IMG/VR virus record: IMGVR_UViG_2562617057_000004
Coordinates: 1 to 10,981 of that record
Direction: 5' to 3' (one strand)
DNA from: a virus
Lineage: Duplodnaviria; Heunggongvirae; Uroviricota; Caudoviricetes
Length of the DNA: 10,981 nt
Shown here: positions 4,900-5,126 of the stretch, piece by piece
How positions within the stretch are numbered: position 1 is the first letter of the stretch
Layout of the letters: each line of letters starts with the position of its first letter
The notes under the pieces: generated by a model
Database searches by the model: none
What the model was told of the DNA's origin: nothing
The model's input: the letters and a program-made list of their open reading frames with translations, nothing else
Position numbers and translations under genes: made by a program

Positions 4900-5126
4900 T
4901 GTCTACCTTATCTACCTGGTGGATGCTCAGGCCAGTAATGACGCGGGTTTTATGGTGGTAGACAGTAAAAAATCTCTGTCTACCTGATGTCTACCCATCC
5001 CTCCGACTGGCTACAAAAACAGGTAGACAAGGTAGACAGCTTGTAGACAGTAAAAAAAAGCTGTCTACCTAAATTAATACACTGAATTAAAACAACTTTT
5101 ATGTAATCAGGTAGACAAGGTAGACA
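4900..5126. repeat. Iteron cluster, putative replication origin
   Basis: About 11 copies of GGTAGACA / TGTCTACC in both orientations (4900, 4910, 4957, 4977, 4988, 5022, 5031, 5043, 5062, 5110, 5119), including CAGGTAGACAAGGTAGACAGC twice, immediately downstream of the primase gene. Confidence 0.75.

What the first reader, a model, noticed from the sequence alone, without database searches (positions are those of the whole stretch)
4900..5126. Bidirectional 8-bp iteron array downstream of the primase gene
About eleven GGTAGACA units in both orientations, with a duplicated 21-bp double-iteron block and AT-rich flanks, occupy the position where P4 and PICI origins lie relative to their primase. 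This is probably the primase-helicase binding site and origin.
Basis: partly seen in the sequence, partly recalled or inferred. Interest (0 to 1): 0.4.

Follow-up and report, generated by a model that had tools for sequence, protein, structure and literature searches.

The report
Replication origin of a phage satellite
The repeat cluster is real and is the replication origin of an E. coli phage-satellite island (a PICI closely related to EcCICFT073), a kind of origin already described and tested experimentally, so the finding is correct but ordinary.

Summary
Window 4900-5126 carries 11 GGTAGACA units (9 exact, 2 with one mismatch) in both orientations, and the 21-bp block is duplicated exactly. 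This is far beyond chance.

The array starts 14 nt after the stop codon of a 584-aa initiator-helicase. That protein is 98% identical to Pri-Rep (c1495) of the E. coli satellite EcCICFT073. The EcCICFT073 pri-ori segment has been shown to drive plasmid replication (Fillol-Salom 2018, PMC6092414).

The array is two inverted modules with identical spacing (8|1|8|40|8|12|8|3|8). One module has an 82% AT 40-nt spacer, the likely melting site.

Across 12 E. coli/Shigella alleles the 6-bp core TCTACC is conserved while the spacers drift. In more distant relatives the layout persists but the word changes (TGTTCACC, TGTATACC, GTGTTCAT). The word changes together with the initiator's C-terminal domain, which is homologous to the phage P4 origin-binding domain (PDB 1KA8).

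- In P4 the element just 3' of the primase gene is crr, not ori. The layout, however, copies P4 ori.
- The AT-rich stretch is inside the array, not flanking it.
- The "primase" lacks the zinc-finger and TOPRIM motifs.

Verdict: already known, low interest.

The parts
5141..6895 (-). Initiator-helicase gene ('pri-rep', 584 aa): D5_N + SF3 helicase (DUF5906) + C-terminal P4-type origin-binding domain. The N-terminal 142 aa match no Pfam or NCBIfam family.
   Evidence: Pfam D5_N, DUF5906 and Pox_D5. 98% identical to EcCICFT073 Pri-Rep. 40% identical to P4 alpha residues 326-756. Residues 488-576 match PDB 1KA8 at E=7e-6, and residues 197-443 match the 7OLA DNA primase chain at E=1e-14.
4900..5126 (-). 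Whole iteron array (11 units of 8 bp, core TCTACC), the predicted origin.
   Evidence: Unit positions are conserved in 12 alleles; core columns show 0.946 conservation against 0.726 for non-core columns, and 0 of 10,000 random placements reach this.
5022..5126 (-). Module A, read on the minus strand: 8|1|8|40|8(inverted)|12|8|3|8|1|8. Units at 5119-5126, 5110-5117, 5062-5069 (inverted), 5042-5049, 5031-5038, 5022-5029.
   Evidence: Same order and orientation as the six type-1 repeats of P4 ori (8|2|8|35|8inv|14|8|3|8|2|8).
5070..5109 (.). 40-nt spacer with 82% A+T: the predicted DNA unwinding element.
   Evidence: Read directly from the sequence. GC is 0.27 over 5050-5149. The equivalent spacer is 73-89% A+T in most of the homologs examined, including P4 ori.
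4900..4995 (+). Module B, read on the plus strand: 8|1|8|40|8(inverted)|12|8|3|8. It is an inverted copy of the module A geometry, but its 40-nt spacer has 52% GC.
   Evidence: (inverted repeats I1, I3).
4932..4944 (-). Conserved non-iteron motif GCGYCATTACTGG inside the module B spacer. Function unknown.
   Evidence: The 8-mer CATTACTG is present at a fixed position (about +200 from the stop codon) in 58 of 76 distinct homologous regions, including one from the 55%-identity class (L086).
4996..5021 (.). 26-nt central spacer between the two modules. Its sequence is variable among alleles.
   Evidence: Alignment.
4874..4883 (-). A-tract/T-tract motif AAAACTTTTT just beyond the last iteron pair, upstream of the ribosome-binding site of the next gene.
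   Evidence: Present in 64 of 76 distinct homologous regions and after each P4 crr repeat.
4593..4850 (-). 85-aa ORF of unknown function (phrog_1231), present directly after the array in every annotated E. coli homolog examined.
   Evidence: Annotated as a hypothetical protein in this position in the E. coli loci.
4174..4596 (-). Single-stranded DNA-binding protein gene, part of the replication module.
   Evidence: Pfam SSB, E=7e-15.

Best explanation
The array is the replication origin of an EcCICFT073-type phage-inducible chromosomal island (PICI).

The proposed mechanism has the following steps.
1. After induction and excision, the island's 584-aa initiator-helicase binds the eleven 8-bp units (invariant core TCTACC) through its C-terminal P4-type winged-helix origin-binding domain.
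2. The clustered sites nucleate assembly of the SF3 helicase ring(s) on either side of the 40-nt, 82% A+T spacer at 5070-5109.
3. That spacer melts, the helicase loads itself and unwinds, and the island's own SSB coats the single strands.
4. The protein lacks the zinc-finger and TOPRIM motifs of P4 alpha, so priming is probably done by the host primase.

Module B (4900-4995) is an inverted copy of the same binding geometry with a GC-rich spacer. It most likely loads the second hexamer or acts as a cis enhancer like P4 crr.

What is shown: the repeats, their geometry, their conservation, their covariation with the initiator's C-terminal domain, and homology to a tested origin. What is inferred: binding, the melting site, double-hexamer loading and the source of primers.
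For: Position and statistics:
- There are 11 units in 227 nt, starting 14 nt after the initiator's stop codon.

Identity:
- The initiator is 98% identical to EcCICFT073 Pri-Rep. That gene is c1495, 584 aa, in the paper's supplement.
- The array is 82.6% identical and colinear with the CFT073 region between pri and the next ORF.
- The surrounding genes are int, alpA, DUF4222, pri-rep, SSB, capsid E-like and head-decoration genes, all on one strand, as in that island.

Experiment on the homolog:
- The pri-ori plasmid replicates. The Δpri derivative does not, and the Δori derivative is strongly reduced.

Selection on the units:
- Core columns are 0.946 conserved against 0.726 for the rest of the array, and 0 of 10,000 random placements reach this.

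Conserved syntax with a changing word:
- 79 IMG/VR loci and 3 genome loci with homologs at 52-97% identity all carry 6-12 copies of a 6-mer directly 3' of the gene.
- Most of the representatives examined keep the >>[38-44, AT-rich]<...<< layout. The words differ: TGTCTACC, CCTCTACC, TGTTCACC, TGTTCAT, TGTATACC, GTGTTCAT.

Covariation with the C-terminal domain:
- Motif N[DE]FG goes with T at unit position 1 (mean 90% per locus). Motif A[ED]FS goes with C at that position (about 81% of units). This covers 64 distinct loci.
- L088 and L091 differ at 17 of 586 residues, 10 of them in the last 100 (binomial 1.3e-4), and they use different words.

Domain homology:
- Residues 488-576 match the P4 origin-binding domain 1KA8 at E=7e-6, and the helicase core matches the 7OLA DNA primase chain.
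- SaPI Reps are SF3 helicases whose C-terminal winged helix binds iterons in an ori directly 3' of rep with an AT-rich centre (PMC9371898).

Single cluster:
- There is no second iteron cluster in the window. Only two stray TCTACC hits lie outside the array.
Against: No experiment exists on this particular allele. In the paper the Δori construct reduced colony numbers but did not abolish them. No footprint or EMSA for a Gram-negative Pri-Rep was found in the papers read here.

The covariation counts are not phylogenetically independent and represent a few lineage-level switches. One A[ED]FS locus reaches 91% T-type units, so some loci do not fit the rule.

The melting site is inferred from composition only. 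The role of module B, of the conserved GCGYCATTACTGG motif and of the N-terminal 142 aa is unknown. A few homologs (L075, L077, L086) have the modules arranged differently.
Confidence: 0.9

Rival explanations
1. The array is only a cis-acting enhancer like P4 crr. It binds the initiator but is not where replication starts, and the true origin lies elsewhere in the island.
For: In P4 the iteron cluster directly 3' of the alpha gene is crr, and the annotated ori lies about 4.7 kb away at 9086-9809. Module B resembles a crr repeat in its position and orientation relative to the gene and in its A-tract/T-tract flank.
Against: There is no second cluster of the word anywhere in the window, which spans the island from the chromosomal flank to int. 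Only two isolated TCTACC hits lie outside the array. Module A reproduces the P4 ori layout, including an AT-rich 40-nt spacer. In EcCICFT073 the cloned pri-ori segment alone supports plasmid maintenance.
Confidence: 0.04
2. The array is mainly a transcriptional operator. The initiator or another island protein binds it to control the downstream orf85-ssb-capsid genes or to autoregulate pri-rep.
For: The array sits between two co-directional genes, directly upstream of orf85. Initiator autoregulation through iterons is common in plasmids (general knowledge).
Against: No sigma-70-like promoter is found on the gene strand in 4500-5400. The single match is on the opposite strand and is at the level expected by chance. 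Deleting ori in EcCICFT073 affected replication. Eleven sites in two inverted modules around an AT-rich core is origin architecture. This role could coexist with origin function.
Confidence: 0.05
3. The array is a chance or selfish repeat cluster (a MITE/REP-like or recombination remnant) with no function for the island. Alternatively it is a packaging (cos/pac) site.
For: The inverted repeats fold strongly as single-stranded DNA (z = -6.3), as any palindromic repeat cluster would.
Against: Unit positions and cores are conserved while the spacers diverge. The word covaries with the initiator's C-terminal domain. The same layout is found at the same position in Serratia, Morganella and 79 viral-contig loci. 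There is no cosN-like sequence in the array; the only 1-mismatch match is at 5742-5753, at chance level.
Confidence: 0.01

Closest known systems
Replication origin of EcCICFT073 and other E. coli PICIs (Fillol-Salom et al. 2018, ISME J, PMC6092414)
   Same: Same position directly 3' of pri-rep. Same word (TGTCTACC/TATCTACC, core TCTACC). Same 11-unit layout with an AT-rich spacer. The initiator is 98% identical, and the island gene order is the same.
   Different: The array DNA is only 82.6% identical, with the differences mostly in the spacers. The units here are unusually uniform: 9 of 11 are exact copies. The integrase region and other segments are more diverged or mosaic: no complete E. 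coli genome covers more than 84% of the window, at about 90% identity. The chromosomal flank lies next to clpS as in strain VL40, not at the roxA/phoQ site of CFT073.
Phage P4 ori (six type-1 iterons TGTTCACC bound by alpha protein)
   Same: Same order, orientation and near-identical spacing of units: P4 8|2|8|35|8inv|14|8|3|8|2|8 against window module A 8|1|8|40|8inv|12|8|3|8|1|8. Both have an AT-rich long spacer. The 8-mers share 6 of 8 positions. The initiator shares the helicase and origin-binding domain (40% identity; 1KA8 match).
   Different: P4 ori lies about 2 kb upstream of the alpha gene, beyond the intervening genes of the same strand, not 3' of alpha. P4 also needs a separate crr. 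P4 ori has type-2 repeats. Alpha carries a zinc-finger and TOPRIM primase domain that is absent here.
Phage P4 crr (cis replication region)
   Same: It sits immediately 3' of the initiator gene. It carries 8-bp units in both orientations starting with a >>[35]< arrangement. An A-tract/T-tract follows the terminal pair, as beside module B.
   Different: crr is two direct 120-bp repeats with the layout 8|1|8|35|8inv|10|8inv|6|8. The window has two inverted modules with the P4-ori layout and no 120-bp direct duplication.
SaPI origins and Rep / PriRep self-loading helicases (PMC9371898)
   Same: The ori lies directly 3' of rep, with 6-12 short iterons on both sides of an AT-rich centre pointing in opposite directions. 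The initiator is an SF3 helicase plus a C-terminal winged helix. The helicase core is detectably homologous to a DNA primase chain, 7OLA (E=1e-14); attributing that entry to SaPI5 PriRep5 is from my memory, not from a tool result.
   Different: SaPI iterons are 5-6 bp with unrelated sequences. The hosts are Gram-positive. No sequence match to a SaPI C-terminal domain was found here.
Iteron plasmids (pSC101, R6K, P1, RK2 type)
   Same: Repeated initiator-binding sites lie next to an AT-rich unwinding element.
   Different: Those use 17-22-bp direct repeats, a RepA-type initiator that recruits host DnaB, and usually DnaA boxes. Here the units are 8 bp in both orientations, the initiator is itself a helicase, and no DnaA box is present.

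Membership tests
Gram-negative PICI origin (EcCICFT073 type) | Lies immediately 3' of the replication initiator (pri-rep) gene | tested here: met
   The first unit ends 14 nt after the stop codon of ORF 5141-6895. The same holds in all homologs, where the first unit starts at about +15 to +38.
Gram-negative PICI origin (EcCICFT073 type) | [quoted passage not shown] | tested here: met
   A unit pair at 5110-5126 and units at 5022-5069 flank the 40-nt, 82% A+T spacer 5070-5109.
Gram-negative PICI origin (EcCICFT073 type) | Cognate initiator is a PICI Pri-Rep allele | tested here: met
   570 of 584 residues are identical to the CFT073 protein. c1495 is listed as EcCICFT073 pri in the paper's supplement.
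Gram-negative PICI origin (EcCICFT073 type) | Island context: integrase, alpA, unidirectional transcription, roughly 10-12 kb element | tested here: met
   int is at 9743-10981, alpA at 9124-9420, and all module genes are on the minus strand. The window is colinear with the CFT073 island.
Gram-negative PICI origin (EcCICFT073 type) | The fragment supports autonomous replication when the initiator is supplied | not testable with these tools
   Shown for the EcCICFT073 homolog only (PMC6092414).
Phage P4 ori/crr system | Type-1 iteron TGTTCACC | tested here: not met
   The word here is TGTCTACC, which differs at positions 4 and 5. More distant homologs (L004, L081) do use TGTTCAC(C).
Phage P4 ori/crr system | Initiator with an N-terminal zinc-finger/TOPRIM primase, SF3 helicase and C-terminal origin-binding domain | tested here: not met
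   The helicase and origin-binding domain are present. The CPxCGG...CNQCG, AEG and AADxD motifs are absent from the 142-aa N-terminus, and there is no Pfam or NCBIfam hit there.
Phage P4 ori/crr system | Two separated cis elements (ori and crr) several kb apart | tested here: not met
   There is a single cluster. Only two isolated TCTACC hits occur elsewhere in the window.
Phage P4 ori/crr system | Unit layout >> [about 35-40, AT-rich] < [12-14] >>> | tested here: met
   Module A compared with P4 ori.
SaPI-type origin with a self-loading Rep helicase | SF3 helicase initiator with a C-terminal winged-helix domain that binds the iterons | tested here: inconclusive
   Domain homology is shown and covariation with the iteron word is shown. 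Binding itself was not tested. The single-sequence AlphaFold model of the C-terminal domain was too poor to use (pLDDT 48.5).
Iteron plasmid origin (RepA/DnaA-dependent) | 17-22-bp direct repeats with DnaA boxes | tested here: not met
   The units are 8 bp in both orientations. There is no TTWTNCACA in the array.

The most novel reading that the evidence does not exclude
The PICI origin is a compacted form of the split P4 ori/crr system. It consists of two inverted copies of the P4-ori binding geometry (identical 1/40/12/3 spacing). One copy has an AT-rich spacer that melts. The other has a GC-rich spacer carrying a conserved non-iteron motif (GCGYCATTACTGG) that could recruit a host factor or the host primase, because this initiator has lost the P4 primase domain. 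A second part of the reading is that iteron specificity is set by a few residues at the start of the third helix of the C-terminal domain (N544/D545/G547 here), which would let origin specificity be predicted and re-engineered. [quoted passage not shown] The P4 ori comparison here argues against that statement.
Probability: 0.3. Interest if true: 0.35.

Novelty: already known. Interest (0 to 1): 0.18.

Why it matters
The result confirms that an unannotated 227-bp intergenic repeat cluster is the island's replication origin. The cluster lies between a 'DNA primase family protein' and a 'hypothetical protein' in RefSeq records. Related sequence is present in 471 of 5,426 complete E. coli genomes, 329 of them covering at least 80% of the region. 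It could therefore be annotated routinely.

The comparative data add modest value in three ways:
- They show a conserved binding 'syntax' shared with phage P4 ori.
- They give natural examples of initiator/iteron specificity switches.
- They show that the so-called primase of these islands lacks the primase motifs, which raises the question of who primes.

None of this changes the general picture of PICI replication.

Tried and rejected
- Full-text searches for the 8-mers and for P4 iteron terms returned only unrelated primer hits. The P4 GenBank annotation was used instead.
- The genome-contig scan with the single protein gave only 3 loci. A profile scan of viral contigs gave 80.
- The promoter/terminator scan of 4500-5400 gave one match of each kind, at the chance level. 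The promoter-like match is on the wrong strand.
- The DnaA-box search found none in the array.
- The cosN search found one 1-mismatch hit inside the pri-rep gene, at chance level.
- Rfam found nothing in the array.
- The ssDNA fold is strong (z = -6.3) but follows trivially from the inverted units, so it was not used as evidence.
- The single-sequence AlphaFold model of the C-terminal domain had pLDDT 48.5. It was not used for fold search. Its helix boundaries are only a weak hint that the covarying residues start helix 3.
- A cf-PICI (capsid-forming) identity was considered because capsid E-like and head-decoration genes are present. It was dropped because EcCICFT073 itself has the same genes.
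- The two small ORFs overlapping the array (4841-4987 on the + strand, 4980-5159 on the - strand) were treated as non-coding. Nothing is annotated there in any RefSeq homolog.

Full report
**Observation.** The sequence at 4900-5126 contains nine exact and two one-mismatch copies of GGTAGACA. Six are on the plus strand (4957, 5022, 5031, 5042, 5110, 5119) and five on the minus strand (4900, 4909, 4977, 4988, 5062). In the whole window there are 16 matches at up to one mismatch, against 5.1 expected from shuffles, and none of 200 shuffles reached 16. Eleven of the 16 fall in 2% of the window. The 21-bp block CAGGTAGACAAGGTAGACAGC is exactly duplicated (5020-5040 and 5108-5128), with an inverted 95% copy at 4900-4918. 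The 6-bp core TCTACC occurs 12 times in the window, 10 of them in the array. The exception is the 'AT-rich flanks': the AT-rich stretch (5070-5109, 82% A+T) is inside the array.

**Context.** All genes of the region are on the minus strand:
- an integrase (9743-10981);
- AlpA (9124-9420);
- a DUF4222 protein (6892-7179);
- a 584-aa protein with D5_N, DUF5906 and Pox_D5 domains (5141-6895);
- the array;
- an 85-aa ORF (4593-4850);
- SSB (4174-4596);
- a capsid-E-like protein (2498-3553) and a head-decoration-like protein (2151-2486).

The array starts 14 nt after the stop codon of the 584-aa gene.

**Identity.** The 451 bp around the array match 471 of 5,426 complete E. coli genomes. One of these is strain CFT073, at 82.6% identity. 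There it lies in an island between roxA and phoQ with the same gene order. The window protein is 98% identical (570/584) to the CFT073 protein. The supplement of Fillol-Salom et al. 2018 lists CFT073 c1495 (584 aa) as the pri gene of EcCICFT073.

[quoted passage not shown] It reports that a pri-ori clone of EcCICFT073 maintains a thermosensitive plasmid at 44 °C, whereas the Δpri clone does not and the Δori clone is significantly reduced. The finding is therefore an allele of a described and functionally tested origin.

The window as a whole is a mosaic. No complete E. coli genome covers more than 84% of it, at about 90% identity. Its left end is chromosomal sequence next to clpS, as in strain VL40. 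VL40 carries a decayed copy with IS elements in the initiator gene but an intact array.

**Anatomy.** The units were laid out in window coordinates.
- Read on the minus strand from 5126 to 5022, the spacing is 8|1|8|40|8(inverted)|12|8|3|8|1|8.
- Read on the plus strand from 4900 to 4995, it is 8|1|8|40|8(inverted)|12|8|3|8.

The array is thus two inverted modules with identical 1/40/12/3 spacing around a 26-nt centre. The modules differ in the long spacer: 82% A+T in module A and 52% G+C in module B.

**Conservation.** Twelve E. coli/Shigella alleles were aligned. The 66 columns of the TCTACC cores have mean conservation 0.946, against 0.726 for the other 158 array columns. No random placement of eleven 6-mers in 10,000 trials reached that value. 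The two 5' bases of the 8-mer vary between alleles (TG, TA, TC, CC, CT, CA), so the functional word is NNTCTACC. Two non-iteron motifs are also conserved:
- GCGYCATTACTGG in the module B spacer (its 8-mer CATTACTG is in 58 of 76 distinct regions, at a fixed position);
- AAAACTTTTT beyond the last pair (64 of 76).

**Distant relatives.** The homologs examined were Serratia and Morganella (52-53% identity) and 79 viral-contig loci (52-97% identity). All carry 6-12 copies of a 6-mer directly 3' of the gene. Most keep the >>[38-44, 73-89% A+T]<...<< layout. The words differ: TGTTCAC(C), TGTTCAT, TGTATACC, GTGTTCAT. A few (L075, L077, L086) arrange the modules differently.

**Initiator and covariation.** The protein aligns with P4 alpha residues 326-756 at 40% identity. 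Residues 488-576 match the crystal structure of the P4 origin-binding domain (1KA8, E=7e-6), and the helicase core matches a DNA primase chain, 7OLA (E=1e-14; I recall this entry as SaPI5 PriRep5, which no tool result here confirms). The C-terminal domain diverges faster than the helicase core: 30-33% against 42-62% identity to the TGTTCA-class proteins.

Within the TCTACC class, initiators with the motif N[DE]FG (residues 544-547 here) have T at unit position 1 (mean 90% per locus). Those with A[ED]FS have C there in about 81% of units. This covers 64 distinct loci. These are a few lineage-level events, not independent observations.

A sharper case is L088 against L091. They differ at 17 of 586 residues, 10 of them in the last 100 (binomial 1.3e-4), and they use TGTATACC and GTGTTCAT respectively. 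This is what is expected if the C-terminal domain reads the units. A single-sequence AlphaFold model of the domain was poor (pLDDT 48.5). It only hints that the covarying residues begin the third helix.

**Mechanism.** SaPI Reps are SF3 helicases whose C-terminal winged helix binds iterons in an ori 3' of rep. They melt the AT-rich centre without ATP and self-load, probably as two hexamers (PMC9371898). From memory, P4 alpha binds the type-1 iterons of ori and crr. By homology, the most likely mechanism is as follows: the initiator binds the eleven units, helicase rings assemble on both sides of 5070-5109, that spacer melts, and the island SSB coats the strands. Binding, the melting site and double-hexamer loading are inferred, not shown.

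The N-terminal 142 aa have no Pfam or NCBIfam hit. They lack the CPxCGG...CNQCG zinc finger and the AEG and AADxD TOPRIM motifs, which P4 alpha and the 794-aa Morganella homolog do have. The protein is therefore called a primase only because of its P4-alpha C-terminal part (TIGR01613). Priming by the host primase is the simplest inference.

**Comparison with P4.** In the P4 record the cluster directly 3' of alpha is crr (4291-4590), and the annotated origin is at 9086-9809. The layout of the six type-1 repeats of P4 ori (8|2|8|35|8inv|14|8|3|8|2|8) is nevertheless the layout of module A. The words share 6 of 8 bases. The crr repeats share only the first part (8|1|8|35|8inv), together with the A/T-tract flank seen next to module B. 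The window has no second cluster. If both P4-like functions exist, they are combined here. The array works like P4 ori and like SaPI origins, but it belongs to the E. coli PICI origin family.

**Rivals.** Four alternatives were considered:
- A crr-like enhancer with the true origin elsewhere is unlikely, because there is no second cluster and the cloned pri-ori segment of the homolog suffices.
- A purely transcriptional operator lacks a promoter on the gene strand, though autoregulation could coexist with origin function.
- Chance or selfish repeats are excluded by conservation and covariation.
- A packaging site is not supported, and there are no DnaA boxes.

**Verdict.** The feature is already described in kind, and a near-identical system has been tested experimentally. 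Interest is low. The small additions are the exact two-module geometry, its match to P4 ori, the natural specificity switches, a conserved unexplained motif, and the absence of primase motifs.

Noticed in passing
window 7631-7719, 8109-8196, 8218-8294 (minus strand): Rfam finds two C4 antisense RNAs (RF01695, 74-75 bits) and an isrK RNA (RF01394, 63.5 bits) between alpA and the replication genes. The long ORFs listed there (7412-7915, 7866-9113) look non-coding apart from short Icd-like C-terminal ends. Homologous loci annotate 'host cell division inhibitor Icd-like' genes in this region. This looks like a duplicated P4-like RNA immunity region.
   Followed up: partly
window 6470-6895 (minus strand; residues 1-142 of the 584-aa protein): The N-terminal 142 aa of the so-called primase match no Pfam or NCBIfam family. 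They lack the zinc-finger and TOPRIM acidic motifs present in P4 alpha and in the 794-aa Morganella homolog. This segment is also the most variable part among E. coli alleles, at 65-98% identity against 94-98% for the helicase core. The protein may not be a primase at all.
   Followed up: partly
window 4932-4944: A non-iteron motif, GCGYCATTACTGG on the gene strand, sits in the GC-rich 40-nt spacer of module B. Its 8-mer CATTACTG is conserved at a fixed position in 58 of 76 distinct homologous origins, including one locus of the 55%-identity class (L086), which uses a different iteron word. In CFT073 it forms part of an 8-bp inverted repeat (TTACTGGC...GCCAGTAA), read by eye from the sequence. 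Function unknown.
   Followed up: partly
window 1-1000; locus L002 (E. coli VL40): Window 1-1000 is 99.9% identical to unannotated sequence just beyond clpS in strain VL40, and 5,425 of 5,426 E. coli genomes match some part of these 1,000 bases. Where the chromosomal flank ends was not mapped. VL40 carries a decayed relative of this island. There the initiator gene is broken by ISSso6 and IS421 insertions, yet the iteron array is intact (94.5% identical).
   Followed up: partly
window 5742-5753 (minus strand): A 12-mer, GGGCGGCGACCC, differs by one base from the 12-mer GGGCGGCGACCT that I searched as lambda cosN (from memory). It lies inside the initiator gene. One such match is expected by chance. 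EcCICFT073 is reported to have two functional cos sites, whose positions I could not obtain.
   Followed up: no
loci L075-L078 and L086 (viral contigs): In these homologs (55-71% identity) the modules are arranged differently. The module with the less AT-rich spacer (about 52% A+T) comes first after the gene, and a long 83-87-nt central spacer separates two mirror-image halves. The origin architecture is therefore not fixed across the family.
   Followed up: no
loci L088-L094 (viral contigs): The initiators of L088 and L091 are 97% identical (17 differences in 586 aa) yet sit next to arrays built from different words, TGTATACC and GTGTTCAT. The rest of this group uses TGTATACC-type words. This is a natural specificity switch that could be used to map the recognition residues.
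   Followed up: partly
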